Below are positions 23,400 through 45,651 of a stretch of 64,000 nt of DNA, one piece after another; position 1 is the stretch's first letter, and every line of letters begins with the position of its first letter. The position numbers and the translations under genes are program-made. A model generated the notes under the pieces. It had not been told where the DNA came from. It worked only from the letters and a program-made list of their open reading frames with translations, and did not search any database. This DNA comes from an uncultured Actinomycetota bacterium. GTDB lineage: Bacteria > Actinomycetota > Actinomycetes > Mycobacteriales > Mycobacteriaceae. The stretch spans positions 109,482 to 173,481 of the forward strand of contig CAWBFI010000012.1 in the NCBI GenBank assembly GCA_963788075.1, read 5' to 3'.

Positions 23400-23534
23400 G
23401 GTTTGTCTTTCGGGGAGCGCACCCGGGCCGGGTCGGTGACGAACCCGGCATGACCGGCATAGTCGAGCCACCCGCGGGTGAACTGCGGGTTGACCGCATC
23501 AGCGGCGGCGATCACCGGCTTCAAATTGTCCGGG
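23400..23534 (-). pseudogene. istA: istA middle fragment
   Basis: Reads PDNLKPVIAAADAVNPQFTRGWLDYAGHAGFVTDPARVRSPKDKP, exactly bridging the other two istA pieces. Confidence 0.9.
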
Positions 23535-23676
23535 TTATGTGCCCGGCTGCGTTATGTGCCCGGCCGCCGGTAATCCTCACTGGTGCAATGCCGATGGGTT
23601 GAGATCGGGCACATAACGAAGAGTCATGGCAACACGATTGCTTCCTGGCTATGTCTGCAGAAAGGAAGTTGTCGCC

Positions 23677-24947
23677 ATGTTGGAGAAGTATTTCGTGAAG
23701 CCGCAAACCGTTGATCGGGTTCGCGCGTGCTGGATCGGCGCGGAGGTCGAACTGTATGTGGAGTGGCTGTGTGGGCGGGAGTATGCGGCCCGTACGGTGT
23801 GGCATAGGGTGCCGATGCTGGTGGGGTTCGGTGAGTTTGCTCGCGCCCGCGGCGCTAATACGTTGGAGGACTTACCTGTTCATGTCGATGCGTTCGTCGC
23901 GCGGTGGGCCGCGGGTCAGCAACGTGCTCATCGTCGTGGTGACCACGATCGAGTGGGCAGGGAGGTGCGCGGTCCGATCGAGCAGCTGCTGCGTCTGGTT
24001 GTTCCCGGTTTCGACGGCAGCGGCCGACCCCACCGACGGGTGCCGTTCGCCGACGTGGCACCGGGGTTCTTCGAGTACTTGGCCACCGAGCGTGGTCTTC
24101 GGCCGGTGTCGATTCGTGCCTACCAGCACCATTTGGACCGCTTCGAGGACTACCTGACCCATATCGGTGTCAAGGAGTTGACGGAGGTGTCACCGACGGT
24201 GCTTGCCGCTTTCGTCGCCGATCGTCGCGCGGCTGGGCTGGCCAAGACGACGGTTCGGCAGACCTGCGGGGTGCTGCGGGTGTTCCTTCGTTACGCATAT
24301 CGCGAAGGCGTGCTCGGCCGGGACCTCAGCGATACGGTGCAGTGGCCGCAGGTCTACCGGCTCTCCGATGTTCCGCGGTCGATTTCGTGGGCCGAGGTGG
24401 AGCAGGTGCTCGCCGGTGTGGATCGCCGCACCCCTTGCGGGATGCGGGATTACGCGATCTTGTTGCTGCTGGTCAGCTACGGCCTGCGGGGCCGTGAGGT
24501 CTCGCGGCACTGACGCTGGACGACATCGACTGGAAACGGGAGCGGCTGGCTGTCCCGGAACGAAAGGCCGGGCATTCGACGGCGTTCCCGCTGTCCACGG
24601 TGGTGGGCGCGGCGCTGGTCGACTATCTGCGGCACGCTCGACCGGACAGCAGCGACCGGCACGTGTTCTTTCGCACGATGGCTCCGGTCCAGCCGATCGG
24701 GGCGGCCGCGGTGTGCTCCCGCGCCCGCCACTACCTGCTCAAGGCGGGTGTCGAGGTGCCCCGCCCGGGATCGCACACGCTGCGCCACACCTGTGTGCAA
24801 CGTCTGGTAGACGCCGACTTCCCCTTGAAGACGATCGGCGATTTCGTCGGTCACCGCTCGCCGGCATCGACCCAGATCTACGGCAAGGTCGCCGTCGAAC
24901 CGCTGCGTCGGGTCGCCCTGGGCGACGGCGAGGAGGTGCTGCGATGA
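23677..24947 (+). pseudogene. RitA tyrosine recombinase, frameshifted near 24505
   Basis: RDYAILLLLVSYGLRGREV, then after a 2-nt shift ALTLDDIDW...HTLRH...VGHRSPASTQIY. Confidence 0.85.
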
Positions 24948-25909
24948 CCGAGAGCCTGGGCTGCGTGGTCGATCGCTTCCTGGCGCACAAGCGGACGCTG
25001 GGCCGCAAGTACCACAGCGAGGAGGCCGAGCTACGGCTGCTGGTGCGCTTCGCCGAGAACCGTCACGCCGACCGGCTCGACCAACTGACAGCGGCGCTGC
25101 TCGACGACTTCCTGGCGTCCCGGCCCCGGCCGCGTCCGCGCAGCTTCAACCACCTGCTGGGTGTCGTGCGTGGCCTGCTCGACTGGGCGGTGACCTACGA
25201 GTTGCTGCAGGCCTCCCCGCTGCACACCCGGCGACGCCGCGCCACCACCGCGCGTATCCCGTTCGTGTTCGACGTCGCCGCGGCCCGTCGCCTGCTCGAC
25301 GCCGCGGCCGCGTTGCCCGACAACCCGCGAGCCCGGCAGCGGGGCCCGACCTACCGGGCGATCTTCGCCCTCTGCTACGGGCTGGGGCTACGAGCCGGTG
25401 AGGCCTGCCGGCTGCGCCTAGCTGACATTGACCCACGACGAGATCTGCTGGTCGTGCGGGGCGGCAAGTTCGGCAAGACCCGCCTCGTCCCACACGGTCC
25501 GCGTATCGGCAAGCTGATCGCCGAGCAGCTCGCACGCCGCCGTGCCGACGGCACTGTGGCAGACGACGCCCCGCTGTTCAGCTTTGACGGCCGCCGGTGC
25601 GTGCATCCGGGCACCGCCAGCCAGGTGTTCCACCACTTGGTGACCGTACTCGATCTCACTGTCCCCGAGGGTGTTTCGCCACCGCGGCTACACGATCTCA
25701 GACACTCCTTTGCTGTCGGGTGCCTGTTGCGCTGGTATCGCGACGGGCTGGACCCATCAACCCGGCTGCAGCACCTGGCGACCTTCCTCGGTCACGTCGA
25801 CCCCGCGTCCACGGCGGTCTACCTCACCGTCACGCCCGGGTTGCTGGGCCAGGCCAACCAGCGATTCGAAGCCTTCACCGAACCGGTATGGCGGCAGGCC
25901 GCGCGATGA
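24944..25909 (+). CDS. RitB tyrosine recombinase
   Basis: YGLGLRAGE, KFGKTR, HDLRHSFAV...LGH..PASTAVYL; ATGA overlap. Confidence 0.9.
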   Translation: MTESLGCVVDRFLAHKRTLGRKYHSEEAELRLLVRFAENRHADRLDQLTAALLDDFLASRPRPRPRSFNHLLGVVRGLLDWAVTYELLQASPLHTRRRRATTARIPFVFDVAAARRLLDAAAALPDNPRARQRGPTYRAIFALCYGLGLRAGEACRLRLADIDPRRDLLVVRGGKFGKTRLVPHGPRIGKLIAEQLARRRADGTVADDAPLFSFDGRRCVHPGTASQVFHHLVTVLDLTVPEGVSPPRLHDLRHSFAVGCLLRWYRDGLDPSTRLQHLATFLGHVDPASTAVYLTVTPGLLGQANQRFEAFTEPVWRQAAR

Positions 25910-26913
25910 CCTCAACCCCGGCTCTGGGCCAACTGCTGCACTCGTTTTTCGTCGACCACCTGATCACCGTCAAGGGTCTGCGCCCGGCCTCGGTGCGCAG
26001 TTACCGCGACACGATCCGGCTGCTGCTGGTATTCGCCGCGGCCGACAAGGGCTGCAAGATCACGCGCCTGACAACGGGTGACCTCACCTTCGATCGGGTG
26101 GTCGGATTCCTGCGACACCTCGAACAGGACCGCGGCAACCACACCCGTACCCGCAACCAACGACTCGCAGCGGTGCACATCCTGTTCGACTACATCGCCA
26201 TCCGGGACCCCGAGATGCTCGGCGTCTGCCAAAGGGTGGCTGCCATCCCAGCCAAACGCGCAGCACCCCCCCAGACCCGGTTCCTCGAACGCGACGAGAT
26301 CGAACGCCTACTGCACCAACTGCCCCGCAAAGGTCGCCTTGCGCTGCGGGATCAAGCCCTGCTGCTGTTCCTCTACAACACCGGGGCGCGGGTGCAAGAA
26401 GTGGCCGATCTGCGGGTCGGGCACCTCGACCTCGGTGCGCACCCACTCGTGCGCCTGCACGGCAAGGGCGACAAGTGGCGCACCTGCCCGCTGTGGCACC
26501 AGACCGCACGACTCCTGCGCGACCTGTTGGACTCTGCGGCCCTACCGCCGACGCCGCTGACGCCGGTGTTCGCCACGCGTGGGAGACCCCTGACCCGTTT
26601 CGGCATCTACAAGATCGTGCGACGACACGCGTCCGAACTCGACAAACCTCAAATCGACCGCAGGATCAGCCCGCACACCTTCCGGCACAGCTGCGCCGTT
26701 CACCTGCTCGAGGCCGGCGTCGAGGTCAACGTAATCCGAGGCTGGCTCGGTCACGCCGACCTGTCCACCACCAACCGCTACGCCGAGATCAACACCAAAA
26801 CGAAACTGGCGGCCCTTCGCGCCTGTGAGCCGCCAACTACCTCGGCGGGACACCGCAGCACGCCGATCTGGCGATCCGACCAGACCCTCCTCAACTGGCT
26901 CGACTCACTGTGA
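25906..26913 (+). CDS. RitC tyrosine recombinase
   Basis: YNTGARVQE, GKGDKWR, PHTFRHS, WLGHADLSTTNRY. Confidence 0.9.
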   Translation: MTSTPALGQLLHSFFVDHLITVKGLRPASVRSYRDTIRLLLVFAAADKGCKITRLTTGDLTFDRVVGFLRHLEQDRGNHTRTRNQRLAAVHILFDYIAIRDPEMLGVCQRVAAIPAKRAAPPQTRFLERDEIERLLHQLPRKGRLALRDQALLLFLYNTGARVQEVADLRVGHLDLGAHPLVRLHGKGDKWRTCPLWHQTARLLRDLLDSAALPPTPLTPVFATRGRPLTRFGIYKIVRRHASELDKPQIDRRISPHTFRHSCAVHLLEAGVEVNVIRGWLGHADLSTTNRYAEINTKTKLAALRACEPPTTSAGHRSTPIWRSDQTLLNWLDSL

Positions 26914-27024
26914 CCGTTATGTGCCCGATCTCAACCCATCGGCATTGCACCAGTGAGGATTACCGGCGGCCGGGCACATAACGCAGCCGGGCACATAACC
27001 CGGATTATGTGGCGCGCCACATAA

Positions 27025-27707
27025 TCGGGGATCAGCACCGCGAACACGCCGCCGAAAAACTCCCACGCCGCCTGACATCCGGCGATCACCGCCGCCAGGG
27101 TCTGCGAATAGGACAACCACACGAACATGTGCCGGGAGTACACCGCGGTGAAGATCAGCGCATACACCTTGCGGCGTCGACCATCAGCACCATCGGTGAG
27201 CATCCCCAGATAGCCGAAATCGATCTGGCACTCCACTCCAGGATCGCCATCCGCGACCCGCACCGTGGTGTCTTTGCGTCCGAAACCGCAACGCTCACTG
27301 GCGAATCGGTGCAACGTCCGATACGGGACCACACACCCCTGCCGGGCCAACAGCGTGTGGATCTTGGTGATCGTCAACGGCCGTTGCTCACCCTCGCCCG
27401 CCACCCACGCTTTGATCTGCCCCTCGAACCCCAGCAGTTGCTCCCAGACCGCGCCATGACCATCTGGCCGGGCTGGACGCACCGCTTCGGCGACCATCCC
27501 GATCAACTCGTCATCGACAGCGCTGGCATCGTCGTCTCGGCACAGGCCGGCGCTCTGCGCGGCCTCCACGTAGCGGCGCACCGTTTTGCGGTCCAGGCCG
27601 CAATGCGCGGCGATCGTGCGGTACCCCGGCGCCGGCAACCCCGCCACCCCCAACCACACCCGCAGTACTTCCCTGATCTCGTTCACACTGACCTCCCGAA
27701 AAGCCAT
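27025..27707 (-). pseudogene. istA: istA 5' fragment
   Basis: MAFREVSVNEIREVLR...CQIDFG...FGGVFAVLIPD, then RIT sequence. Confidence 0.9.
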
Positions 27708-28544: not shown

Positions 28545-28640
28545 ACCACAGTTCAGCTTGATTCCGGCGTCCTCGAGCACGTTGTGTAACCGCTTAGCTT
28601 CCCAGCGGCCACCCGCGCGTTGCGTTGCTGAGTCGGCGCA
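28545..28640 (-). pseudogene. Short IS110-family transposase remnant
   Basis: Minus-strand reading KRLHNVLEDAGIKL; boundaries approximate. Confidence 0.5.
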
Positions 28641-28694
28641 TGGCGTCGGTTGCGGAACATGTCTGGATTCCAGGTCAGTGATAAAGGTATTGGC

Positions 28695-28700
28695 TAGACT
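28695..28700 (+). promoter_or_regulatory. -10 box (TAGACT) of GT87 paralog 2
   Basis: Within the conserved leader GGTCAGTGAT-N3-GGTATTGGCTAGACT. Confidence 0.5.
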
Positions 28701-28765
28701 CCCGGGCAGCTGAGCTGGGGCGCCCTGCTACCGCTACCGTTTCGCGCCGACCCGAGGAGAAGGCA

Positions 28766-30295
28766 GTGAACCGACCCCTCGAGGTATTTTCTGCCGCGGC
28801 CTCAGCGATCCGGGGGCAGCTGTTGGTGGCCGCCGGTCAGTCTGAGCGCACCATCTTGCTCGGCACTATCCTCGTGGTGTCGGCGGTTTCGGCGGCAAGA
28901 AGTTTCGTTCTTACCCAGTACTTCTCGGTCGATGCGCTTTCCCATCTTGTCGTTTCCGCCCCCGAGGACTGCCTCCTGAACTGGGGCACGCAGGTCGGCC
29001 GACACTGCTTCAGCGACTACGGTTTGACAGCAGACGAGGCGATGCGGCCCAACCCCTGGGAGCCCTACTTCCTCCCCAACTTGAAGCAGATGGGTCAGGA
29101 TCTAGGTGCCTTCTCGGCTCACAACAATTACTCGGCGTCCGGGATGGTGCCGCAGGTGTCCTTTGGGTTTCTGGGTAAATGGCTGCACGCGCCGCAACTG
29201 GGGCTGTTGGGCTTTCTGCTGGCTTTGACGATCGCGTGCCTGACTCCGGCCGTCTGGGCGGCGCGGGGAGCTCGCGGTCTGGAGCGGGTGGTGGTGTTTG
29301 TGGCATTAGGTGTCGCGGCCATGCCGGCGTGGATAGCAATCGATCGGGGCAACTCGGTGGGCTTCTTGGTGCCCATCGCGCTGGTGTTTCTGGTGGCGCT
29401 GTGCCGACGGCGCTGGAGGCTGGCGGCGATCATGGTGGTCTTGGCAGCGCTGGTGAAACCGCAGTTTGTTGTGCTGGCGGTCGCGTTGTTCGCGGCACGG
29501 CAATGGCGGTGGGGCGGCCTCACCGTGGCCGGAGCCGTAATCACCAACCTCGTCGCCTATCTGCTGTGGCCGCGGGACTTCCCGACGACAATCCTGCAGT
29601 CGATCCACAACACCCTCGGCTTCGGTTCGTCCGCATCCCGCGTAGATCCGTTTAACGTGTCCTTGGCCAAGGCACTGCTAATGATCCCCGACCACATCAA
29701 GGCCTATGAAACAGGCGGCGTTCCGGACAGCTTCCTCGCTGGTCCGCGATCAATGCTCGGGTATGTCGTGTTGGTTCTCGTCGTGGTCTGCGTTGTGGCT
29801 CTAGGGCGGCGCATCCCGCCTGTCATGGCGGGTATCGTGCTGCTGGCCACCGCCTCGCTTTTTCCCTCTGTGGTCGCCGCCTACTATCTGGTATTCGCAC
29901 CACCAGTGGCGGCGCTCATTGCCCGAGACCCCGACGGGCCACCAGGATCCGGTATTTTCGATCGACTTGAGACTCTCGGCAGCCGCCGTCGTGTCGTCGG
30001 TCTCTGCGTGAGTCTGGCCGCAGCGCTCTCCATCGCCCAGATGCCGGTCGACGTGGTCTTCATTGGCCAGAAGATGGGAGGCGAGGCTATAGCCCACTAC
30101 ATACTGGGGCTCGTCGTTTCGGTGAGAATCACGCCGGTCCTATGGCTGATTGCCTGCACGGCAATCATTGTCTCGTACGCGCGCAAGCCAGCTCCATCAC
30201 AGCGCAGTGACCGGTGGCCGGAACCCAAAAGCTCCCAGGGTACTGCTGCCAACACCCCACCCCGCCGCATAGCCGTGCCAACGACCGAGTCCTAA
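28766..30295 (+). CDS. GT87/DUF2029-like GT-C glycosyltransferase, paralog 2
   Basis: HCFSDY, IDRGNS, LVKP; paralog of 15575-17113. Confidence 0.8.
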   Translation: MNRPLEVFSAAASAIRGQLLVAAGQSERTILLGTILVVSAVSAARSFVLTQYFSVDALSHLVVSAPEDCLLNWGTQVGRHCFSDYGLTADEAMRPNPWEPYFLPNLKQMGQDLGAFSAHNNYSASGMVPQVSFGFLGKWLHAPQLGLLGFLLALTIACLTPAVWAARGARGLERVVVFVALGVAAMPAWIAIDRGNSVGFLVPIALVFLVALCRRRWRLAAIMVVLAALVKPQFVVLAVALFAARQWRWGGLTVAGAVITNLVAYLLWPRDFPTTILQSIHNTLGFGSSASRVDPFNVSLAKALLMIPDHIKAYETGGVPDSFLAGPRSMLGYVVLVLVVVCVVALGRRIPPVMAGIVLLATASLFPSVVAAYYLVFAPPVAALIARDPDGPPGSGIFDRLETLGSRRRVVGLCVSLAAALSIAQMPVDVVFIGQKMGGEAIAHYILGLVVSVRITPVLWLIACTAIIVSYARKPAPSQRSDRWPEPKSSQGTAANTPPRRIAVPTTES

Positions 30296-30590
30296 CCACC
30301 ATCACCGGCCTCGTTTGTGTGCCCCCGAGCTTGGGGAACAGAGCACGACTGCGGCCGGGAATTGTTAAACATCCCACAGACACCCTCACCGAATCCGATG
30401 TGATGGGCGGCTACAAAAACCTCGCCGATGTCGAGCGGGTCTTCGCGCGTTCAACAGCGAACTCGACGTGCGACCCGCCGGGCATCGTCTGGCCGACCGG
30501 GTCGGTGCCCACATGTCCTTGCGCACGCTGACGGCGCTCATCGAAAGTCCCCAGGTGTGCTCGTTGAAATTCCCCACCTGTGAGCATCGG

Positions 30591-31442
30591 TCAGTGTAGT
30601 GGTTGGCGGGTGCCGGTGGTGGCGCGGCGCAGAGTTTCGGCGGCGGCGTGGTGGTCGCGGAGTCGGTAGGACTCGCCGTCGAGGTTGATGACCACGGAGC
30701 GGTGCAGCAGGCGGTCGAGCATGGCTGCGGCCACGGTGGTGTCGCCGAGGATCTCTCCCCAGGCCCCGACGCCGCGGTTGGTGGTGATCACGATTGAGGT
30801 CTTCAAATACCGTTGGGAGACAACCTGAAACAACGCCGAGGCCGCCTCGGCCGGCAGTGGCAGATACCCGAGTTCATCAATGACCAGCAGGGTGGGCCCG
30901 GCGAAGAACCGCATGGTGGTGGCCCAGCGTCCTTCAATCGCCGCACGATGGCAGCGGGCGGCCAGATCTGCGGCGGTGGTGAAGTAGGTGCGATACCCGG
31001 CGTGTGCGGCCGCTCGCGCCAGACCGACCGATAAGTGCGTCTTGCCTGTCCCCGGCGGGCCGATCAACAAAATGTTGGTCGCTGATTCCAGGTAGCGGCA
31101 GGTCCCCAGTTCGTCGATCATCGCGCGGTCGATCCCGGCGGCGGCATCGACGTTGAAGTCAGCCAGCGTGGCCGGGGTCGGCAGGCACGCGAACCGCAGC
31201 CGCCCGGCCAATCGCCGTGCGGTGCTGGCGTCGACTTCCACAGCCAACAGCCGCTCCAACGCCACGGTCAGCGACAGGCCCTCGGCGGTGGCCTCGTCGA
31301 GCACGGCCGGCAAGGCTTCGGCGGCGGCAGTGAGTTTGAGTTCGGCCAGATGCGCGCGCAGTGCCTGATACCGGCTGGCCGCGGCCGACGGCGATTCGGC
31401 GGCGCTGCGGGCGGTTTTGCCGGTGCGTGAGGTGGGGGTCAT
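30591..31442 (-). CDS. istB: IstB helper ATPase
   Basis: GPPGTGKT, LLVIDELGY, TTNR, AMLDRLLH. Confidence 0.95.
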   Translation of the reverse strand: MTPTSRTGKTARSAAESPSAAASRYQALRAHLAELKLTAAAEALPAVLDEATAEGLSLTVALERLLAVEVDASTARRLAGRLRFACLPTPATLADFNVDAAAGIDRAMIDELGTCRYLESATNILLIGPPGTGKTHLSVGLARAAAHAGYRTYFTTAADLAARCHRAAIEGRWATTMRFFAGPTLLVIDELGYLPLPAEAASALFQVVSQRYLKTSIVITTNRGVGAWGEILGDTTVAAAMLDRLLHRSVVINLDGESYRLRDHHAAAETLRRATTGTRQPLH

Positions 31443-32800: not shown

Positions 32801-33274
32801 GAGAAAGCGCGCCTCCTTCAACACGGCAACTGGCGTCAGACACCAGCAGCATCGAAGGAGGCCCGCCCTTCTCGGCGGAGCCACACGGGTGGGGAATTTC
32901 GATGAGCGTCAGTGGGGAAATTCAGCGAGCGTCGTCAACGCTGTGCTACTACCTCAGCTGGCACACGAAACAGGCGTTGGCGCGGGTCCTATTCCAGGAC
33001 AACGACAACCCGCCGCCGCGGCCACCGCCTTCGCCGCCCAGCGCTCTGACTAAGCACGCAGGAAAGCCGCACGTACCGCACAGCCCGCTCGTCGACCGGT
33101 CAATAGTCTGTGTGCTCATCCACAGGTTCTGACCATTGCTCTCGCCGACCTGGCCAGCATCTACGCCAACCAGATTCAACCCATCGAGAACATGCCGGCA
33201 TTCACGCAGACCACCACCCTTACCCCGCTGCAGCTTAGAGCCTTCGGAGGCCTCGGCGTCTCTCACCGCTTGGG

Positions 33275-34846: not shown

Positions 34847-34908
34847 TGCCTTTCCTCCCGTTTACCCGACACGGTGACGCAAGCAGCGCCGCAGCTCGGC
34901 TGCGCGGC

Positions 34909-36765: not shown

Positions 36766-37114
36766 CTATCTGGATTCGGCTGGCTCGGGTTGGAGCCTAT
36801 CCGGTTGGTGTTCGTCGTGTTCGGTGTAGTAGGCCTCCTCGTATTCGTCGGGTGAAAGTCCGTTAAGACCGGCTTGGATGCGGCGCGGGTTGTACCAGCC
36901 GTCGATGTAGCGGAACAGTGCCGCTTCTGCTTCCGCTCTGGTAGCGAAAGTGATTGCAGGCCAGTATATTAGCTCGATTTTCAGGGTTGACCACAGGTTT
37001 TCCGCCAACGCATTGTCGAAGCTATCCCCGACGCTTCCGGTGGAGGGGGCGATGCCGGAGTCGCACAGTCGCTGGGTGAACCGGACCGCAGTATATTGAC
37101 AGCCCTTGTCGCTA
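36766..37114 (-). pseudogene. IS3-B OrfB, 3' fragment
   Basis: SDKGCQYT...GSVGDSFDNALAENLW. Confidence 0.88.
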
Positions 37115-37232
37115 TTAAGCCGGATCCGGCTTAATAGCGATTATGCCGAGGTTTGCTTTAAGCCGAGGATCTGCGGAGATGGCCTGCGCTCGTGGTGGTT
37201 GCTGGTGGATTTCTCGGCTTAACGTTTCGCGG

Positions 37233-38273
37233 CTATCGCAGGCTGTAGAGGGTTTGGAGTTGGTCTTCGGTGAGTGGCTCGGTGGCCGCGGTGTTGATGG
37301 CGGGGGTGGCGGCGTTGATGGCTTGTCGCATCATGTCCAGGGTCGCAAAGGCATAGAACGCTGCTGTGGTGGAAGCGTTTTCGTGGCCGAGGAGGCGCAT
37401 GATGATCGGCAGCGGGATACCCTGCTGGTAGAGATCCATCGCCTTGGTTTTGCGCAGCAGGTGGCAGTGGATGTTCGCCGGGATCGAAAGGCATTGAGCA
37501 CGAGCGGATTCGGCGGCTTGCTTGAGCACGGCGGCGACCGTGTCAGCGGACAGTTCGGCAGGTCGCCCGCGGTGCAGACTGTAGAACAATGGCCTGGTCG
37601 CGGGGAGTTTGGTGATATTCGGGTGGAACTCATCGAGGTAGACGTGCAGGTGCTCGACGGTCTTCTCGGTGAGCGGTACGACGCGGGTCTTGTTGCCCTT
37701 GCCGGTAAGCAGGATGTGCCCGGGCTCGGTCAGGCACAGATCCTGCAGGGTCAAGCCCGTGATCTCGCCCACGCGAGCCGCGGTGTCGTAGAGCAGGATC
37801 AGCAGCATCCGGTTCCTCCGAGATTTCGCTGTTTGCCCGGTGAACGCGGCAAGGATCGCACGCGTTTGAGCTTCGGTGAGGTACTCGATGGGCCTGCGGG
37901 GGCCAGCCGGCGCTTTGAGTGCTTTGGCTGATTGGCTGAGCGCGACGAGCGTGAGATCTTCGTAGGCCGCGTAGGTCAGGAACGCTTTGACCGCGCTCAG
38001 ACGCAACCTGACGGTCTTGGGCGTGTAGTGCCGCTGATCGGTCATCCAGGTCAGCCATCCTTTCAGGTGCCGGCGGTCGAAGTGATCGAAGCTGACGTGC
38101 TCACGTCCGATGTGCTCGGCCTCGGCGAGGTAGTCCAGGAAGCACTCCAGGCTGATCCGGTAGGCCTCAATCGTTTTCGGCGACAGTCCTCTGGTCTTGG
38201 GCATGTAGGCGTGCAGATAATCGCGGGCGAACCTGAAGAAGTCCGGTGCGCCGGTATGTGGGTCGCGTCTCAT
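37233..38273 (-). CDS. RitC tyrosine recombinase
   Basis: [38 protein letters not shown]. Confidence 0.9.
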
Positions 38274-39223
38274 CAGAATCCCACCTGCGGTAGCAGGGAC
38301 TGGCGTTGTCGGGTGATGCCGGCGTAGGTGGCCATGAAATCGGGCGACGTGTGCACGTAGTAGTACGTGCTCTCAAAGGTTGCGTGGCCCATGTAACGAG
38401 ACAGGTAGGGCAGCATCGCGGTGACGTCGTCGCCGGCGGTCATCCATCGCTGGATGTTGGCGTAGGCGAAGTGATGCCGGAAATCGTAGGGGCGTGGCTG
38501 TTGGCCGGCCGCGGGCCGGGGCAGCCCGGCCTGGTCCCAGATGCGGCCGAACATTTTCCCGACCGTTGCCGCGCTGACCTGGTTACCGGTAGCAGAGACG
38601 AAGAACGTGCGACGCGAGGCGAAATGTGCTCGCGACGTCCGGTCGCACGTGTCGAGGATCTCGATAACCCGATCAGTCAGCGGCAGCCTGCGGCTGCGAT
38701 GTCCTTTGGACCAGACGATGTCGATGTGCCCGGCATCAAGGTCGACCTGACCGGTCTGCAGAGCGCGGGTTTCGCCGGTCCGCAGCCCGCACGAGTGCAT
38801 CAGCGTGAAGAACGCGACCGCCTGCCACCGCCACGGGGATGGTGCCTGTAGTTGTGTTGCGGCGGTGAAGAAAAACTCGATCTCACGCCGGGCCAACAGA
38901 TAGGCATGCGCGGCAACGAAAGAGGCTTTCCACCGGTCGGAGAGCACATAGGCGTCGTTGGCCCCGTTGGTATTCAGCCACCGGCCGACGTCACGGATGT
39001 AGGACATCCAGGACCGGTAGCGGCCGCAACGTTGCAGCTGAACACCGACCCAGCCTTCGACAGTTTCTTTGTCGAACACCGTGCGGTCGTGCTCGGCGCA
39101 GTAGGCGTCGAACTTCCTCAGGTACCAGATGCGGGAAGCGCCAGTGAATCCCATGTTCGCCTTGAACGCCAGGTACGCATCCAACTCGGTGGCGAACGCG
39201 CTGGTGAAGCCGTGGCCACTCAT
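38273..39223 (-). CDS. RitB tyrosine recombinase
   Basis: [35 protein letters not shown]. Confidence 0.9.
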
Positions 39224-39313
39224 GACCGCACGGCTTCTGGGACCGGCAGGACGCAGTCGAGCAGACGTAGCCGGTCGACGCTCATGTAGAGGTTCGTCGA
39301 TTCTTCGCTGGCG
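39220..39313 (-). pseudogene. RitA of RIT-B, 3' fragment
   Basis: [30 protein letters not shown]-stop; ATGA overlap with ritB. Confidence 0.85.
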
Positions 39314-39390
39314 TGTTTGATATACGGGTGATCTGAGGCGGGTCGACCACCCGGGCGTGGGTCGGTTGACCGACGAGCGAGGAGACCCCG

Positions 39391-40443
39391 ATGGACCAGT
39401 TTATGCCGTGCTTGATCCGTCACCATCGTGGGGTGGAGCTCGTCGCGATCACCCTGGGGCATCCGCTGCTGGATGACTATCTGGCCTTCGTTGCGGCGCG
39501 TGCCAGGACCAATACCTGGCTGGCGGTGGCGTCGGATTTGAAGATCTTCTTTGGTGTGGTTGCTAAGCAGCCAGCGCAGGTCAACGCTGCAGATGTCTTC
39601 GCGTTCTTGGCATCTCAACGTACTTCCCGCTTGGGCGAGCGGGTGGTGCGATTGGAGGACGGCGAGCCGGGCCTGGCGGCGCGCACGATCGCCCGCCGGT
39701 TGTCCAGTGTGCGTGGCCTGTACGCCTATCTCGCGGCCCGGGGTGACACCGGCGTGAGCCGCAACCCGGTTCCGACCAGCCTGGCCGCCCGCCGCCCCGG
39801 TGCTCGGCGCGGCAAGGGCGGGGTGCCGTTGATCCGCACCCCTCGTACGCTGCCGCGGGTGCTGGCGCCAAGCGAGGTCGACGCGCTGCGGGCGGTGCTG
39901 CGCACTCATCGCGACCGGGCCATGGTCGAGGCGATGCTGCTGGGTGGCCTGCGACGCTGCGAGGTGCTCGGTCTGCGCCTCGACGACGTCAACGTCGGCG
40001 AGCGGCGGGTGTTCGTGGCCGAGGGCAAGGGCGGTCGGCAGCGGATGGTGCCGGTATCGGCGCGGTTTTTCGCCTCGCTCGGGGACTATCTGGATCAGGA
40101 GTGGCCGCGAGGGTCGAGTGATCGGGTGTTCGTGGTGTTGAAGGGGCCGCGGCGTGGTGAGCCGTTGTCTGCGGCGGGTCTGGATGAGATTCTCGACGGT
40201 GCGCGCGGTCGCGCCGGGCTGACTCAGGCGACGTGCCATCAGCTGCGGCATACCTGTTTCACCCGGCTGCGGGAGGCCGGGATGGCACTGGAGGCCATCC
40301 AAGCCCAGGCCGGCCACGCCTCGATCGACTCCACCCGCATCTATCTGCACCTGGCCAACGACTGGTTGGAACGGGAGTACCTGCGAGCCGCCGAAGCGAT
40401 CGAGGCGCAGGTCGTCGCGTCCGGCGAGGCGGCCGAGGAATGA
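39391..40443 (+). CDS. TnpA-like tyrosine recombinase
   Basis: LGGLRRCE, GKGGRQR, CHQLRH, AGHASIDSTRIY; AGGAG RBS. Confidence 0.88.
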   Translation: MDQFMPCLIRHHRGVELVAITLGHPLLDDYLAFVAARARTNTWLAVASDLKIFFGVVAKQPAQVNAADVFAFLASQRTSRLGERVVRLEDGEPGLAARTIARRLSSVRGLYAYLAARGDTGVSRNPVPTSLAARRPGARRGKGGVPLIRTPRTLPRVLAPSEVDALRAVLRTHRDRAMVEAMLLGGLRRCEVLGLRLDDVNVGERRVFVAEGKGGRQRMVPVSARFFASLGDYLDQEWPRGSSDRVFVVLKGPRRGEPLSAAGLDEILDGARGRAGLTQATCHQLRHTCFTRLREAGMALEAIQAQAGHASIDSTRIYLHLANDWLEREYLRAAEAIEAQVVASGEAAEE

Positions 40444-42267
40444 ACCGGTCACCAGCACATCGCCACGACATCGAGGAGCTCGTCGAGGCGTATCGGGCCG
40501 ACCTCGTCGCGGCCGGGATGTTCGCCGGACACCCGGTGACCTCGGTGGCGCGCACGTTTCTCACCCGCGTTGGGGTGGCCGGCTGGTCGGCGTTGCCGCT
40601 GGCATCGCAGTGCGCATTGCCGCTGAAGGACCGACGGGTGGTCGGTTGGCTGATCGTGACGGGACGGCTGCGGCCCAGCCCCGACTATCTCGTGGCGTGC
40701 CGGCCCTACCTCGGCGAAGTCGCCGCCCATCATCACCGCAGGTTCCACGAACGGTTCACCGCGACCTCCGCCGAGCTCGGGTTTGATTCCCTCGTGACCC
40801 GCCTGCAGTGGTCCGCCCTGGCCAAGGTGGCAGCGCTGGCCGGGCTGACTCCCCAGCGGCTGACCCAGCCGGTGATCGACGCACAGCGAAAAGCGTTGAC
40901 CGCCGCGATAACTCGCCACCGACCCGACAGCCACGGCGCCAAGGCGCTCAGCGCGGCGCTGTTCGGTGCGCAGACCACTTTGTTCCACCTCGGCGTCCTT
41001 GACACCGCTCCCCGCAAAACAGCCCCAGACCGCTCGGCCGAGCGGGCCGCCCAGTGGGCGGCGGTCCCGCCACGGCTGGCCACCACCCTCACCGGGTACA
41101 TCGCCCAGACACGGCTGTCGCTGCGGGCCTCGACAATGGTGCGCGTCGAGGGCGTGCTGCGGGAGTTCGCCGGCTGGCTGGCCGTCAACGCCCCCGAGGT
41201 GCTCTGCGTCGCCGATCTGCGTCGGGCACACATCGAGGCCTACAAGCTGCACCTGTCCACCCGGCCCTCGGCCCGCGGCGGCCGGTTGTCCAAGATCAGT
41301 CTCGCCGAACACCTTGGCACCCTGCGCACCTGCTTCGAGCGGCTCACCGAATGGGACGGCGACGACATCCCCGCCCGCGTGCTCATGTTCCCCGGCGACC
41401 TGCCGCTGCGCGACGACCCGCTGCCCAGATTCCTCGACGACGCCGCGTTCACCAAGCTCCTGCAGGCCGCGCGCGCCGACGACGACCCGTTCGTGCGACT
41501 GTGCGTGGAGTTCCTGGCCCGCACCGGCCTGCGCAAGGGCGAATTCCTCGACCTCACAGTCGATTCCGTCGTGCAGATCGGCGCCGCGTACTGGTTGCAC
41601 GTGCCGCTCGGCAAACTGCGCACCGACCGCTACATCCCCTTGCATCCCCAACTCAAGGATCTCCTCGACACCTGGATCGCCACTCGACCCACCAGCCTGC
41701 GCAGCCGCTACCTGTTCGTCGAGTACGGCCAACGCATCGGCGAAGGCCGCGTCGACCGGGCAGTAGCCAAAGCCGCGAAAGCGGCTGGCATCGGCCGTGT
41801 TTCGCCCCACCGCCTCAGGCATACCTTGGCGACCCAGGCGATCAACCGCGGCATGACCCTCGAAGCCCTGGCCGCGTTGTTGGGGCACCGATCGATGCGG
41901 ATGACCCTCGTGTACGCCCGAATCGCCGACCCGCACCGTCGCCGACGAATACTTCTCCGTCAGCGAAAAGGTCGAAGCCCTCTACAACCAACCACGCGCA
42001 CTGCCCGCCGACGCCGAAGGCGCCGAAATGCGCAAGCTCCGTGTCGAGATGCACCGCCGGATGCTCGGCAACGGCTACTGCGCCCGACCCGTCGGCCTGG
42101 ACTGCCACTTCGAATCCATCTGCGAATCCTGCACTTTCTTCCAGACCACCATCGAATTCCGCCCGACCCTGCAGGCACAACGCGACGACGCCGCCGAGAA
42201 AGGACAACTCGGCCGCCAGAAAGTGTTCGACGGACTGCTCGCCCGACTCGATCAGACCGCCTCCTGA
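40440..42267 (+). pseudogene. TnpB-like large tyrosine recombinase, +1 frameshift near 41931
   Basis: TGLRKGE, PHRLRHT, LGHRSMRMTLVYARIAD, then in another frame RMLGNGYCARP..CHFESICESC. Confidence 0.82.
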
Positions 42268-42369
42268 CAAGACGCACTTGATGCGATGAAGGGGCGGGGC
42301 CTCCGCTCCTCGTGACGTTCCCGGCGGATGCTGGGGGTGTTCACTTTCCACGAATCATGGGAGGCCCCT

Positions 42370-43398
42370 ATGAACGAGTATGACGGCAAGCAGTTCGTCG
42401 GGATCGATCTGCATCGGCAGCGGTCGGTGATCGTGCGCCAATCGGAGTCCGGTGAGCAGCTCTCAGCGGTACGGATCGTCAACGACCCGGTCGCGTTGGG
42501 ACTGCAGCTCGAGGACGCCGGCTCCGACCCCGAGGTGGTGCTCGAAGCAACGTATGGATGGTACTGGGCGGTCGATGTGCTGCAAGCCCACGGAGCGCAG
42601 GTACATCTGGCGCACCCATTGGGAGTCAAAGGGTTTCGGTACAGAAGGGTGAAAAACGACGTGCGCGACGCCGGCGATCTGGCTGATCTGCTGCGGATGG
42701 GTCGACTGCCCGAGGCCTGGATCGCACCACCGGCGACACGCGAGCTGCGGGAGTTGGTGCGCTATCGGGCCAAGCTGGTCGCGATCCGATCCGGGCTCAA
42801 AGCCCAGGTCCATGCCGTACTGGCCAAAGCCGGGGTGTTGATTGCGGTATCGGACCTGTTCGGAGTCGGTGGGCGCAAGCGACTCGCGAAGGTGCCGCTA
42901 GCCACCGCCTACGCCGAACGGGTCCGCTCACTGCTGGAACTGATCGATACCCTCGATGGCCACGAGGCACGTTTCGCCGCGTTGATCGCCAAACGGCTCG
43001 ACGCTGACCGCGGCTATCAAGCCATCCAGCAGGTACCCGGTATCGGAGTGACGCTGGCGGCGGTTTTTGTCGCCGAGATTGGTGACGCCGGCCGCTTCAC
43101 CGGTCCAGCCCAACTGTGCTCTTGGGCCGGACTGACCCCGCGCCACCGCGAATCCGACACCGTCGTACACCGCGGGCATATCACCAAACAGGGCTCCAAA
43201 CTGGTTCGTTGGGCAGCGATCGAGGCGGTGCAGCGCCACCCGACGACGGCCAAGATCGCGGCCGACAAAGACCGCATCGAAGCTCGCCGCGGCAAAAACA
43301 TCGCCAAGGTTGCCGCGGCACGCAAACTACTCACGCTGGTCTACTACGGGCTGCGCGACGGCCACATCCGCGCGCTCGACCGTGCCAGCGCAGCGTGA
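42370..43398 (+). CDS. IS110-family DEDD recombinase
   Basis: VGIDLH, VLEAT, KNDVRDA, VPGIG, WAGLTP. Confidence 0.93.
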   Translation: MNEYDGKQFVGIDLHRQRSVIVRQSESGEQLSAVRIVNDPVALGLQLEDAGSDPEVVLEATYGWYWAVDVLQAHGAQVHLAHPLGVKGFRYRRVKNDVRDAGDLADLLRMGRLPEAWIAPPATRELRELVRYRAKLVAIRSGLKAQVHAVLAKAGVLIAVSDLFGVGGRKRLAKVPLATAYAERVRSLLELIDTLDGHEARFAALIAKRLDADRGYQAIQQVPGIGVTLAAVFVAEIGDAGRFTGPAQLCSWAGLTPRHRESDTVVHRGHITKQGSKLVRWAAIEAVQRHPTTAKIAADKDRIEARRGKNIAKVAAARKLLTLVYYGLRDGHIRALDRASAA

Positions 43399-43797
43399 GC
43401 ACTCCGGACGCAACCCGTGCGCGGCCGCTTTTTTGTCTGACCCCCCAACGGCGTGGTCGCCCGCTTGATTGACCCCACGTGTTGCTACCGCACCGCTCCA
43501 TGCCCACCACAGCTGGGCGAAGGGATGACCGGCAGCCGGAACAGTCCGGCCCTGCCCCAAAGTATCTGCACCATCACGGTTTGGAGAAGGCCCACAACCA
43601 CACATCCGCCCGGCTGATCTTCCCGACGTCCGTCGAAAGCATGCATCGGCCCGGTCCGGGGTCAAGACCGTTCGTCCTCGCTACGCTGCGGGCGCTCCGT
43701 CTTGACCCCGGCCCTTACCCGATGCCGCCTACACGGAGGCCGAAAGCCAGCACAATCCCAGGTCGCCAACGTCTTGACAGAACCCCACCCCTTCAGG
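43399..43797 (+). ncRNA. Candidate bridge/seek RNA region in the IS1111-1 3' non-coding region
   Basis: About 400-nt structured region; hairpin 43658-43709 conserved with IS1111-2; RNA boundaries not determinable. Confidence 0.45.
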
Positions 43798-43819
43798 GAT
43801 GACAAGATCACCCGCATAA

Positions 43820-44925
43820 TGGCCGAGCACTGCCGCGATCGTCGGTAGCGGAACCGCTGCGGCCAGCAGCCGGGATGCGGCGTTGTGGCGCAGCAATCGG
43901 GTTCCCGCCTTCAGCTTGTTCACCCCCGCTTTCCGGAATGTCTCAACGGTCACCCGGTGCACCGTCGCGTGATCGCCCAGCCGGGTGTGTGGGGCTACCG
44001 AACGCAGGAATAGGTGATCATCGCCGGAGCTGGGACGCTCGTCGAGAACATAGGTGGCCAGCTTGCCCAGCAGCAAGGCCGGCAATGGCAGCGTCAGCGG
44101 GTTGCCCGTCTTCTGCTGCACGAGGCCGATTGTGTGCCCACGCCAGTCGACGTCACCCATCCGTAGCGCCACGATGTCACAGGCCCGCAATCCCGTCGAT
44201 AATGCGAGCAAGGTGATCGCGGCGTCTCGCGCGCTGACCACCCCCGACGCACAGGCCCGAACAACCCGTTCCTCGTCGCCATCGCCGAGGGCGGGGACTA
44301 TCGCGTGAAAGCGTTTGATGCCAGCCAGAGTCAGCGCATTGACAAGGTCGGTGCGGCCGGTGAACTTGAGGAACGGACGAAAGTTCGACACCACCCAAAA
44401 CAGCGACGACCTGGCCCACCGGTCCAGTAGGGATTCCAAAAACGCCAGGACACTGGCGCCATCCGCCCGGTCCAGCACTGCGATCCCGCGTGCTTCCAGG
44501 AACACCAGGTAGCTACGCGCCACCCTTCCATAGGCCTCGCGGGTGGCCGGCGCAAGACCGCGCCGGCCCATCTCGGCCTGCCAGGCGGCGTCCAGTGCAA
44601 CGAAGTCGCTGCTCTCGGGCCGTGGACCTCCGCCGCCGCGGCCACGAACCGCCAGGTCCACCCGCCCGGTCTGCACATACGAGTCGAACACCGTAACAAG
44701 ACGCCGGTAATCGAACCGGCGCTGCGGGCTGAACCGACCGGTGCGCACACTGGTCGTCATCGAGGCGAACTCCGCACCCAGACCGGTGGAATACTCACGC
44801 CCCAAGGCGAACTCAGTCAGCGCCTTGATCGTCTTCGCGTACTGACCAACTGTCGATTCCATGTAGCCGGCCGCACGCAGCTCCGCCACGACAACCGCGC
44901 CGATCCCACGGACCGTCGTATCCAT
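43820..44925 (-). pseudogene. RitA of RIT-B, 5' fragment
   Basis: STGLRACD, QQKTG, TRLLRHNAAS...IAAVLGH, then inserted element. Confidence 0.88.
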
Positions 44926-45064
44926 GACCGTCTCCTTCCACAGACGTAGAGATACGACGGACGCTAACCACCACCCGAAACGTTAAGCCGAGAAATCCAG
45001 CGACACCCCCCACGAGCGCAGGCCATCTCCGCAGATCCTCGGCTTAAAGCAAACCTCGGCATAA

Positions 45065-45651
45065 TCGCTATGATGGACCAGCTGACCGTCACAGATATCG
45101 CGGGAGAAGATCGCGTAGTCGAGCGCCGAGATCACCAGGTCGGTGTCCGCGCGAGGGCCGCTGCGCCAGCCAACCACCTTGTTGGAGAACGCATCACGAA
45201 CGCTGGCCAGCCACAGCACACCCTCGCCGGTGAGGATGCGAGTCAGATCGGCCACCCACTTGCGGTTGGGTGCAGTCGCGGTGAAGTCGCGGTCGAGCAG
45301 ATCCGGCGCGGCCGTGTGCTTGGGGTTTTGCCGGGTGGACCCGTGCTTCCAGCCCTTGCGCAGATAGGCGCCGCGGCGGCCGTTGACGCGCATGATCCGC
45401 TCCACCCGCTTGCGGGAGACCCACACCCCGCGGCGGCGCAGCTCCAGCCACACCCGCGGTGAGCCGTAGGTGGCGGCGAACTCGTGAGAGCCGCGGATCT
45501 CATCGATCAGCGTCAGCAGCCCGGCGTCCTCACGGGTCCGCCGCGACGGTTGCTGGCGCGCCTTGCGCCACCCGTAGTAGGTCGAGGCTGCGATACCCAG
45601 GACCCGTAGTACGAGACCGACCGAGAAGTCATGCGCATCAACGAAGTTCAT
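45065..45651 (-). pseudogene. IS3-B OrfB, 5' fragment
   Basis: TYGSPRV, KWVADLT, GQLVHHSD, then RIT sequence. Confidence 0.88.

What the first reader, a model, noticed from the sequence alone, without database searches (positions are those of the whole stretch)
23529..45070. Two unrelated RIT elements share one end architecture: 90-bp IRs, a 20-bp palindrome and inverted 6-bp spacers
Seen in sequence. RIT-A: target-TCCGGG-[IR...IR]-CCCGGA-TTATGTGGCGCGCCACATAA(27005-24)-TCGGGG-target. RIT-B: target-TCGCTA-TTAAGCCGGATCCGGCTTAA(37115-34)-TAGCGA-[IR...IR]-TCGCTA-target. In both, the palindrome is on the ritC side, its halves copy that element's own binding site, and it is not part of the target because the host ORF is restored without it. 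IRs are 90/90 and 90/95 identical, longer than the roughly 30-40 bp I recall for described RITs; RIT-adjacent palindromes have been noted before. Inference: the circle has two tyrosine-recombinase core sites around the palindrome, so body and palindrome could each invert, homogenising the ends and copying the target spacer inward.
Basis: partly seen in the sequence, partly recalled or inferred. Interest (0 to 1): 0.78.

Follow-up and report, generated by a model that had tools for sequence, protein, structure and literature searches.

The report
Travelling palindrome at RIT transposon ends
Two three-recombinase (RIT) transposons in this Mycobacterium-like genome each carry a 20-base palindrome between two 6-base crossover spacers at one end; comparison with about 100 relatives shows this cassette moves with the element and can sit at either end, which gives a testable model for how these never-reconstituted transposons move.

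Summary
RIT-A: TCCGGG-[body 23535-26998]-CCCGGA-palindrome(27005-24)-TCGGGG. RIT-B: TCGCTA-palindrome(37115-34)-TAGCGA-[body 37141-45064]-TCGCTA.

The layout is general. I found it in 83 one-palindrome relatives of both families, in Cupriavidus pHG1, Sinorhizobium and Phaeobacter RITs, and in four more families.

The "ritC side" rule fails. Six of the seven RIT-B copies in this genome, and about half of all relatives, have the palindrome at the ritA end. It always lies on one fixed side of the target.

The inner hexamer belongs to the element. It is not copied from the current target. Uninterrupted IS3 copies hold one hexamer and no palindrome.

Four multi-copy groups with asymmetric hexamers, three of them with asymmetric palindrome centres, fit a head-to-tail joint: ritC end-hexamer-palindrome-hexamer-ritA end. 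This joint holds two mirror-image dif-like cores, and either can recombine with the target. One copy shows the cassette flipped. The two ends evolve in concert.

These are new members of a known kind, with an end architecture barely described in the literature. Earlier reports of this scan already noted it.

The parts
23529..23534 (+). RIT-A hexamer TCCGGG at the ritA end. It is element-borne and the reverse complement of the inner hexamer.
23535..23618 (+). RIT-A inverted repeat, ritA side. It has two direct sites TTATGTGCCCGG (23535-46, 23552-63) and one inverted site CGGGCACATAA (23606-16).
23626..24890 (+). RIT-A ritA. It is broken by a 2-bp insertion near 24499 relative to the 96.6%-identical element L081. 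The N-terminal part is in one frame and the catalytic domain in another. The end coordinate is approximate.
24890..25909 (+). RIT-A ritB (start approximate).
25906..26913 (+). RIT-A ritC, a Xer-like tyrosine recombinase.
26915..26998 (+). RIT-A inverted repeat, ritC side.
26999..27004 (+). RIT-A inner hexamer CCCGGA, between the body end and the palindrome.
27005..27024 (.). RIT-A 20-bp palindrome TTATGTG-GCGCGC-CACATAA, two back-to-back half-sites.
27025..27030 (+). Outer hexamer TCGGGG. This is the native target hexamer: CCC-GA of the Pro-Asp codons of an IS21-like rve transposase gene on the - strand.
37109..37114 (+). RIT-B outer hexamer TCGCTA, next to the target flank.
37115..37134 (.). 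RIT-B 20-bp palindrome TTAAGCC-GGATCC-GGCTTAA.
37135..37140 (+). RIT-B inner hexamer TAGCGA.
37141..37229 (+). RIT-B inverted repeat, ritC side. Sites: TTATGCCGAGG (37141-51), TTAAGCCGAGG (37158-68), and inverted CTCGGCTTAA (37213-22).
37233..38273 (-). RIT-B ritC.
38273..39223 (-). RIT-B ritB.
39220..39315 (-). RIT-B ritA, 3' piece, cut off by the nested insert.
39316..43819 (.). 4.5-kb nested insert in ritA. It is a roughly 3-kb element with tyrosine-recombinase genes (other copies on C1 and C3) that itself carries an IS110-family element (many copies). Boundaries are good to about 2 bp. It is not part of the basic RIT-B.
43820..44925 (-). RIT-B ritA, 5' piece.
44976..45064 (+). RIT-B inverted repeat, ritA side.
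45065..45070 (+). RIT-B hexamer TCGCTA at the ritA end. It equals the native hexamer of this IS3-family target (His-Ser-Asp codons on the - strand).

Best explanation
Both elements are recombinase-in-trio (RIT) transposons.

The mobile unit:
- a 3.4-kb body: ritA-ritB-ritC between inverted repeats, each repeat holding three Rit-site-like repeats;
- a travelling 26-bp cassette: one hexamer plus a 20-bp palindrome made of two back-to-back half-sites;
- one more hexamer carried at an outer junction.

Reading from the palindrome into a body end gives half-site, 6 bp, half-site. This is the geometry of a dif/lox-type core for Xer-like tyrosine recombinases.

Inferred mechanism. The two body ends become joined through the cassette: ritC end | u1' | palindrome | u2 | ritA end. 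The joint could be a double-stranded circle or a folded single-stranded one; I cannot tell which. It holds two mirror-image cores. Either core can cross over with the target hexamer, and the conserved bases of the hexamer set the alignment:
- NNNCGA in the His-Ser/Thr-Asp codons of IS3-type transposase genes, for the RIT-B family;
- NNNNGA before CAA in the Asp-Asn codons of IS21-type genes, for the RIT-A family.

Consequences:
- The palindrome always lands on one fixed side of the target, and the body lands in either orientation.
- Exchange points lie 6 bp apart, and there is no target duplication.
- One outer junction keeps the target hexamer and the other gets the element's, as expected if a heteroduplex segregates.

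Shown here: the anatomy, its generality, both placements, the fixed target side, and which hexamer belongs to the element.

Inferred: the joined intermediate, the use of either core, and which Rit protein binds where.
For: 1. Anatomy at the stated coordinates.

2. Empty sites without palindrome.

3. Seven RIT-B copies in the genome. All have TCGCTA-palindrome-TAGCGA inside. The palindrome is at the ritA end in six and the ritC end in the window. The window and C5 copies share the same 4.5-kb nested insert at 99.99% identity but have the palindrome at opposite ends.

4. In CACCGA targets, the native hexamer sits at the far end in three copies and next to the palindrome in two. This places the two exchange points 6 bp apart.

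5. Surveys of 160 fetched loci plus the genome's own copies:
- 43 one-palindrome RIT-B-family copies (22 ritA side, 21 ritC side) and 40 RIT-A-family copies (25, 15);
- the inner hexamer equals the reverse complement of the outer in 19/43 (shuffle mean 4.1, maximum 11 of 2000) and 27/40 (shuffle mean 2.0, maximum 8).

6. Fixed target side. The non-palindrome flank ends in ...CA in 40/43 RIT-B-family loci and in TTG or TTA in 34/40 RIT-A-family loci.

7. Four multi-copy groups with asymmetric hexamers fit the joint model. The inner hexamer is tied to the body end it adjoins, and the other hexamer turns up at one of the two outer junctions:
- Dactylosporangium L038-41: u1 CTCGGA, u2 CTCCGA;
- L065/L069: CTCGGA, TACCGA;
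- L010/L012/L013: TACCGA, CAGTGA;
- L105/L106: TCGACC, TCGACG.
In the first three groups the asymmetric palindrome centre also reads the same on the element's own strand at either end. The L105/L106 palindrome is symmetric, so it gives no orientation information.

8. Copies with no palindrome have upstream-type target flanks on both sides (L032, L068, L078, L079; RIT-A family L084, L122, L158). Copies with two palindromes have the palindrome-side type of target flank on both sides (L017, L029, L030, L123, L148). The joints lie exactly at the hexamers. This is what site-specific exchange between one copy's core and another copy's far junction would give; homologous recombination inside the bodies would not.

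9. The same layout occurs in C. necator pHG1, S. fredii and Phaeobacter RITs, in a third RIT of this genome, and in three more families.

10. RitA, RitB and RitC are Xer-like simple tyrosine recombinases (PMC8138268).
Against: - No head-to-tail joint was seen anywhere. There was none in the held loci or the genome. There was none in 185,579 genomes for either family's pattern.
- The single metagenome hit (L165) is an assembly fold-back. Its first 39 bases are the exact reverse complement of its own ritA-side repeat.
- RIT transposition has never been reproduced in the laboratory (PMC10214605). A mobilome study found RIT DNA enriched after exonuclease treatment but no circle junctions (PMC5737581).
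- 13 of 83 loci have three different hexamers, and one copy (L011) has the cassette flipped, so further reactions occur.
- It is unexplained how the two element hexamers stay mirror images over many hops.
- Multi-copy groups are few, and copies within a genome are not fully independent.
Confidence: 0.65

Rival explanations
1. The joined palindrome works as a hairpin or cruciform, and the intermediate is a linear molecule with hairpin ends. The roughly 220-bp perfect palindrome at the joint (inverted repeat, hexamer, palindrome, hexamer, inverted repeat) extrudes as a four-way junction. A Rit enzyme resolves it, or cuts the 6-bp palindromic centre as a telomere resolvase would. One half is then copied from the other, which keeps the hexamers and ends mirror-identical.
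For: - The palindromes vary between lineages but stay symmetric. There are 13 distinct perfect 20-mers in the RIT-A family and 5 in the RIT-B family, including positions that do not change in the body's own sites.
- The hexamers are mirror images far above chance.
- The ends evolve in concert even in non-site linker positions.
- The 32-nt cassettes fold at -15.2 and -11.4 kcal/mol as single strands. With 15 nt of each repeat added, the RIT-B joint folds at -35.6 kcal/mol.
- Exonuclease-resistant RIT DNA without circle junctions led others to propose hairpin intermediates (PMC5737581).
- No circle joint is present in assemblies.
Against: - No hairpin-ended molecule has been seen, and nothing here can show one.
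- Symmetry could also come from one protein binding both half-sites.
- The Rit proteins score as Xer-like recombinases, and telomere-resolvase models were not tested.
- Circular permutation still needs the two ends to be joined at some stage.
Confidence: 0.15
2. The two arrangements arise mainly by inversion in place. The body, or the palindrome, flips between the mirror-image cores that flank it. This moves the palindrome from one gene end to the other and carries target hexamers inward.
For: - L011 has the whole 32-bp cassette flipped relative to its sister copies L009, L010 and L012.
- L105 and L106 sit in the same kind of target with the body in opposite orientation and the hexamers swapped along with the body ends.
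- The sites needed for inversion are present in every integrated copy.
Against: - In three groups with asymmetric palindrome centres, the centre reads the same on the element's own strand at either end. In-place body inversion would reverse it.
- These copies lie in different targets, so they are separate insertions.
- The inner hexamer is not the native target's in five of the seven copies in this genome.
Confidence: 0.12
3. The palindrome does not belong to the element. It is a pre-existing target feature, a by-product of insertion repair, a terminator, or an assembly artefact.
For: - It lies outside the long inverted repeats and at only one end.
- Short-read contigs often break or fold back there.
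Against: - Empty sites lack it.
- The same palindrome accompanies one element into different targets.
- Its arms match the element's own sites.
- It recurs in complete genomes and long-read assemblies.
- It occurs upstream of ritA as often as downstream of ritC, so a terminator role does not fit.
Confidence: 0.03

Closest known systems
RIT (recombinase in trio) elements: Cupriavidus metallidurans CH34 and C. necator pHG1 ritABC (Van Houdt 2009; Van Houdt 2012, PMC3414803; Ricker 2013)
   Same: - Three overlapping tyrosine-recombinase genes in the order ritA-ritB-ritC.
- A unit of about 3.4-3.5 kb with terminal inverted repeats.
- Several identical copies per genome.
- Insertion into other mobile elements' genes.
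- The pHG1 copy read here has the same hexamer-palindrome-hexamer cassette.
- Van Houdt 2012 already mentions 'sequence variation at the ends' and a 'palindromic sequence' overlapping the repeat next to ritC.
   Different: - The papers I could read do not treat the palindrome as part of the mobile unit. They do not describe its two placements, the 6-bp hexamers or the absence of a target duplication.
- I could not read Ricker 2013.
- The inverted repeats here are about 85-90 bp, against roughly 28-35 bp in the proteobacterial copies.
Strand-biased circularizing integrative elements (SE), GInt islands and Tn554 (PMC10214605)
   Same: - Transposons driven by several tyrosine recombinases.
- Site-specific insertion without target duplication.
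- A 6-bp spacer at the joined ends travels with the element and is left at one junction, while the target's 6 bp stays at the other.
   Different: - The gene sets differ: intA-tfp-intB-srap, ginABCD and tnpABC.
- Their joint is a single core (end, 6 bp, end) without an inserted palindrome.
- In SEs the carried spacer is replaced at every hop. Here the element's hexamers persist through several insertions.
XerC/XerD at dif, and the folded single-strand sites used by Xer-like enzymes (CTX phage attP(+), integron attC) - from established knowledge
   Same: - The Rit proteins score best against XerC, XerD, XerA and integron-integrase models, all below cut-off.
- The core geometry is half-site, 6 bp, half-site.
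- attC and attP(+) are imperfect palindromes recognised by structure. They are recombined by one strand exchange and then replication.
   Different: - The Rit proteins are not chromosome dimer-resolution enzymes, and no dif site is involved.
- Folding of the RIT joint is only a prediction.
Telomere resolvases (TelK, ResT) - from established knowledge
   Same: They are tyrosine-recombinase-type enzymes that cut 6 bp apart around the centre of a perfect palindrome and seal hairpins. The RIT palindromes have palindromic 6-bp centres (GGATCC, GAATTC, GCGCGC, CCCGGG).
   Different: No homology was tested or shown, and no linear hairpin-ended RIT DNA is known. This is an analogy only.

Membership tests
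RIT (recombinase in trio) element | Three adjacent tyrosine-recombinase genes in the order ritA, ritB, ritC, with short overlaps | tested here: met
   - An intact RIT-B copy encodes 399, 316 and 346 aa, with 4-bp and 1-bp overlaps.
- Pfam Phage_integrase and SAM-like domains are present, and NCBIfam hits are Xer-like.
- RIT-A has the same order, but its ritA is frameshifted.
RIT (recombinase in trio) element | Unit of about 3.5 kb bounded by terminal inverted repeats | tested here: met
   The bodies are 3464 bp (RIT-A) and 3418 bp (basic RIT-B). The inverted repeats are 84 and 89 bp without the hexamers.
RIT (recombinase in trio) element | Several identical copies within a genome (intragenomic mobility) | tested here: met
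   RIT-B has 7 copies at 99-100% identity in three kinds of IS3-family target. RIT-A is single-copy and probably inactive.
RIT (recombinase in trio) element | RitA with two core-binding domains and RitC with an extra C-terminal helix (PMC8138268) | not tested
   Only domain-level hits were obtained. No structure was predicted.
RIT (recombinase in trio) element | Catalytic Arg, His-x-x-Arg and Tyr residues in all three proteins | tested here: inconclusive
   The catalytic-domain models match all three proteins. I did not check the individual residues in an alignment.
SE / GInt / Tn554-type tyrosine-recombinase transposons | Their own gene sets (intA-tfp-intB-srap; ginABCD; tnpABC) | tested here: not met
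   The body holds only ritABC. These elements work alike in carrying a 6-bp spacer, but the RITs are not members.
Xer/dif chromosome dimer resolution | Scores above the XerC or XerD equivalog cut-offs | tested here: not met
   The best scores are 154 and 153 bits, against cut-offs of 335 and 330.

The most novel reading that the evidence does not exclude
The long perfect palindrome formed when the RIT ends are joined is used as a cruciform or hairpin, that is, as a ready-made Holliday junction. Rit enzymes would convert a circle into a linear, hairpin-ended molecule, or recombine a folded single strand. One half of the joint would be copied from the other at each cycle. This would explain four things: the symmetric drift of the palindromes, the mirror-image hexamers, the concerted evolution of the two ends, and the exonuclease-resistant RIT DNA that lacks circle junctions.
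Probability: 0.15. Interest if true: 0.85.

Novelty: new member of a known kind. Interest (0 to 1): 0.62.

Why it matters
RITs are widespread across bacterial phyla, yet their movement has never been reproduced and no mechanism is known (PMC10214605).

The comparative data here define four things:
- the true mobile unit: body, plus a 26-bp cassette, plus a carried hexamer;
- the crossover sites;
- the 6-bp exchange interval;
- the rule that fixes orientation at the target.

They also give sharp predictions for a reconstituted system:
- both body orientations arise from one donor;
- the palindrome always lands on the same side of the target;
- the hexamers segregate between the two outer junctions.

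The definition also helps annotation. RIT ends are routinely mis-set, and short-read assemblies break or fold back at these palindromes.

Tried and rejected
- Head-to-tail joints in held loci and in the genome: none found.
- Joint pattern in metagenome contigs: one 3509-bp contig (L165). It proved to be an assembly fold-back, not a circle.
- Joint patterns in genome contigs for both families: 0 hits.
- Solo palindromes in this genome: none. Every copy lies next to a RIT end.
- Homologous recombination between inverted copies as the origin of the no-palindrome and two-palindrome classes: rejected on paper. It would only swap the downstream flanks.
- A 6-bp target duplication: rejected. The native hexamer occurs once in five of the seven RIT-B copies.
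- Ricker 2013 could not be read, so I cannot exclude that it describes more of this than Van Houdt 2012 does.
- The M. japonicum pMLa copy (L163) shows no palindrome and lacks an annotated ritA. I treated it as a degenerate or no-palindrome copy.

Full report
WHAT IS THERE

The window holds two recombinase-in-trio elements. RIT-A (body 23535-26998) reads ritA-ritB-ritC on the + strand. RIT-B (body 37141-45064) reads them on the - strand.

The two RitC proteins are only 26.5% identical, so these are two distinct RIT clades. All the Rit proteins score as Xer-like tyrosine recombinases, below every curated cut-off. This agrees with their published placement among the 'simple' tyrosine recombinases (PMC8138268).

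The inverted repeats are 90/90 identical for RIT-A and 91/96 for RIT-B when the hexamers are counted. Each repeat has the same build: two direct sites at the tip, and one inverted site about 55 bp further in. The palindrome halves copy these sites.

Three corrections:
- RIT-B is 7.9 kb only because a 4.5-kb nested insert (about 39316-43819) splits ritA. That insert is a second element with recombinase genes that itself carries an IS110-family element. The basic RIT-B is 3418 bp.
- ritA of RIT-A is frameshifted by a 2-bp insertion near 24499, judged against a 96.6%-identical element.
- The genome carries a third RIT family, and a RitC-like gene that may mark a fourth.

THE PALINDROME BELONGS TO THE ELEMENT

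The IS3-family element that hosts the window's RIT-B has two uninterrupted copies in the genome. They read ...cccttg TCGCTA tgatgg..., with one hexamer and no palindrome. Joining the RIT-A flanks restores an rve-domain ORF through ...VLIPDNLKPV....

Near-perfect 32-bp palindromes are rare in this genome: 13 in 6.56 Mb, of which 6 lie at RIT ends. No palindrome copy stands alone.

THE SEVEN RIT-B COPIES IN THIS GENOME

The whole genome holds seven RIT-B copies. All have TCGCTA-palindrome-TAGCGA next to one body end. In six of them that end is the ritA end. Only the window copy has it at the ritC end.

The window copy and the C5 copy share the same 4.5-kb nested insert at 99.99% identity, so one derives from the other. 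Yet they differ in which end carries the palindrome. Because their ritA is split, they must have been moved by enzymes from other copies.

Five copies lie in IS3-family genes whose native hexamer is CACCGA (...His-Thr-Asp...). In three of these, CACCGA sits at the far end and TAGCGA beyond the palindrome. In the other two it is the reverse.

Three conclusions follow:
- There is no target duplication.
- The element brings its own hexamers.
- The two exchange points lie 6 bp apart.

The window copy shows three identical hexamers only because its target natively reads TAGCGA.

HOW GENERAL IT IS

I fetched 80 loci for each RitC. I registered the body ends and read hexamer, 20-mer and hexamer on both sides.

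| | RIT-B family (RitC 72-96% identical) | RIT-A family (62-98%, several phyla) |
|---|---|---|
| One palindrome | 43 (including this genome's 7 copies) | 40 |
| - at ritA end | 22 | 25 |
| - at ritC end | 21 | 15 |
| Two palindromes | 3 | 2 |
| No palindrome | 7 | 7 |

The same layout occurs in C. necator pHG1 (TAGCGC-AAATGTGCTGCAGCACATTT-GCGCTA-body-TAGCGC), in S. fredii and in Phaeobacter RITs. It also occurs in the third RIT of this genome and in three further families. So it is a property of RITs in general, not of these two elements.

Van Houdt and colleagues (2012) had noted 'sequence variation at the ends' and a palindromic sequence overlapping the repeat next to ritC, without interpreting them.

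RULES THAT EMERGE

1. The palindrome sits on a fixed side of the target. The non-palindrome flank ends in ...CA (a His codon) in 40/43 RIT-B-family loci. It ends in TTG or TTA (the reverse of an Asn codon) in 34/40 RIT-A-family loci. Read from the palindrome towards the body, the element's hexamer has the same polarity as the target's: NNNCGA for RIT-B and TCNNNN for RIT-A. A tyrosine recombinase that aligns two cores by their central regions would give this result.

2. The hexamers are usually mirror images. The inner hexamer is the reverse complement of the outer one in 19/43 and 27/40 loci. Shuffled pairs give a mean of 4.1 and 2.0, and never more than 11 and 8 in 2000 shuffles.

The full breakdown of hexamer patterns:

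| Pattern | RIT-B family | RIT-A family |
|---|---|---|
| inner = outer only | 11 | 13 |
| inner = far end only | 9 | 3 |
| outer = far end only | 8 | 4 |
| all three equal | 8 | 14 |
| all three differ | 7 | 6 |

All patterns except 'all differ' follow from an element that carries two mirror hexamers and meets a target hexamer, with either outcome possible at each junction.

3. Four multi-copy groups carry asymmetric hexamers, and three of them also have asymmetric palindrome centres:
- Dactylosporangium (L038-L041),
- L065/L069,
- L010/L012/L013,
- L105/L106 (its palindrome is symmetric).

In each group the inner hexamer depends on which body end it adjoins, and the other hexamer turns up at one of the two outer junctions. 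In the first three groups the palindrome's off-centre base reads the same on the element's own strand at either end. A joint of the form ritC end | u1' | palindrome | u2 | ritA end, opened at either side of the palindrome, predicts exactly this. Body inversion in place would reverse the palindrome.

One copy, L011, has the whole 32-bp cassette flipped.

4. Palindrome-free and two-palindrome copies have matching flanks. In the RIT-B family, copies without a palindrome have upstream-type target flanks on both sides. Copies with two palindromes have downstream-type flanks on both sides. The RIT-A family mirrors this. The joints lie exactly at the hexamers. Homologous recombination between bodies cannot give this pattern. 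Exchange between the core of one copy and the far junction of another can.

5. The two ends evolve in concert. The 5-7-bp linker between the terminal and subterminal sites differs between elements at 30-50% of positions, yet it is never mismatched within an element. The palindromes drift in the same symmetric way: 13 distinct perfect 20-mers in the RIT-A family and 5 in the RIT-B family.

MOST LIKELY MECHANISM

Read from the palindrome into a body end, the sequence is half-site, 6 bp, half-site: GGCTTAA|TAGCGA|TTATGCC in RIT-B and CACATAA|TCCGGG|TTATGTG in RIT-A. This is a dif-like core.

Joining the two ends through the cassette gives two such cores in mirror orientation. Either core can recombine with the target hexamer. 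The palindrome then lands on a fixed side of the target, and the body lands in either orientation. One junction keeps the target hexamer and the other receives the element's.

This reading accounts for all five rules. I put it at 0.65.

Shown: the anatomy, its generality, both placements, the fixed target side, which hexamers belong to the element, and the 6-bp interval.

Inferred: the joined intermediate, whether it is double-stranded or a folded single strand, and which Rit protein binds which site.

WHAT SPEAKS AGAINST IT, AND WHAT I COULD NOT DO

No head-to-tail joint exists in any sequence I could search. The one metagenome hit is an assembly fold-back.

A published mobilome study found RIT DNA enriched after exonuclease treatment but without circle junctions, and suggested hairpin intermediates (PMC5737581). 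That observation keeps a hairpin or cruciform variant alive at 0.15. So do the symmetric drift of the palindromes, the concerted evolution of the ends, and the strong predicted fold of the joint (-35.6 kcal/mol for the cassette plus 15 nt of each repeat).

How the two hexamers stay mirror images over many hops is not explained by the simple model. One possibility is that only copies whose target hexamer equals the element's can leave again. This is speculation.

COMPARISON WITH KNOWN SYSTEMS

These are RITs by gene content, size, inverted repeats and copy number. They work like SE and Tn554 elements in carrying a 6-bp spacer and making no duplication (PMC10214605). They are not members of those families, and their joint is unlike the single core of those elements.

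NOVELTY

The elements are new members of a known kind. The end architecture is only hinted at in the literature I could read.

After my own analysis, a look-up showed that earlier reports of this scan describe one-sided RIT palindromes in at least 20 other genomes and reach similar models. Those are AI notes, not independent evidence.

This report adds:
- the counts in two families;
- the hexamer bookkeeping;
- the tests with asymmetric markers that separate circular permutation from inversion;
- the palindrome-free and two-palindrome classes;
- the concerted evolution of the ends.

Noticed in passing
window 27025-27030 and 45065-45070; L001-L160; G000 C9:340562-343898; L190-L191: Each RIT family inserts at a conserved catalytic-motif codon of another mobile element's enzyme. 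The RIT-B family uses His-Ser/Thr-Asp of IS3-type rve transposases. The RIT-A family uses (Pro)-Asp-Asn of IS21-type transposases. A third RIT of this genome sits in the Phe-His-Asp-Leu-Arg-His box of a tyrosine-recombinase gene. Another family sits in the PQG..SPLLAN motif of a group II intron reverse transcriptase.
   Followed up: partly
window 39316-43819: ritA of the window RIT-B is split by a roughly 3-kb element with tyrosine-recombinase genes, which itself carries an IS110-family element. The same composite sits in the C5 copy at 99.99% identity, so a RIT with a broken ritA has moved, presumably with enzymes supplied by intact copies.
   Followed up: partly
window about 24499: A 2-bp insertion relative to the 96.6%-identical element L081 frameshifts ritA of RIT-A. 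This element is single-copy in the genome.
   Followed up: yes
L032, L068, L078, L079, L084, L122, L158 (no palindrome); L017, L029, L030, L123, L148 (two palindromes): Some RIT copies lack the palindrome and have the same kind of target half on both sides. Others have a palindrome at both ends and the other kind of target half on both sides. They look like reciprocal products of site-specific exchange between two integrated copies.
   Followed up: partly
L002, L035, L042, L048, L165 and many 3.3-3.7-kb contigs among L001-L160: Short-read assemblies end at, or fold back through, the RIT inverted repeats and palindromes. This produces contigs with mirror-image flanks that could be mistaken for circles or inverted duplications.
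   Followed up: partly
window 28760-34852: Between the two RITs lies a long inverted repeat (929-nt arms at 29114-30042 and 33600-34528, 86% complementary, with further matching stretches and a perfect 24-bp pair at 28760-83 and 34829-52). It looks like two diverged copies of one element facing each other.
   Followed up: no
G000 C9:226222-227139: There is a further RitC-like gene (41% identical to the RIT-A RitC). I found no clear inverted repeats or palindrome around it. It may be a fourth, decayed RIT.
   Followed up: partly
L003, L066: In these long contigs the inverted repeat around the RIT extends more than 235 bp into the flanks, so the element sits between mirror-image copies of its host element.
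   Followed up: no
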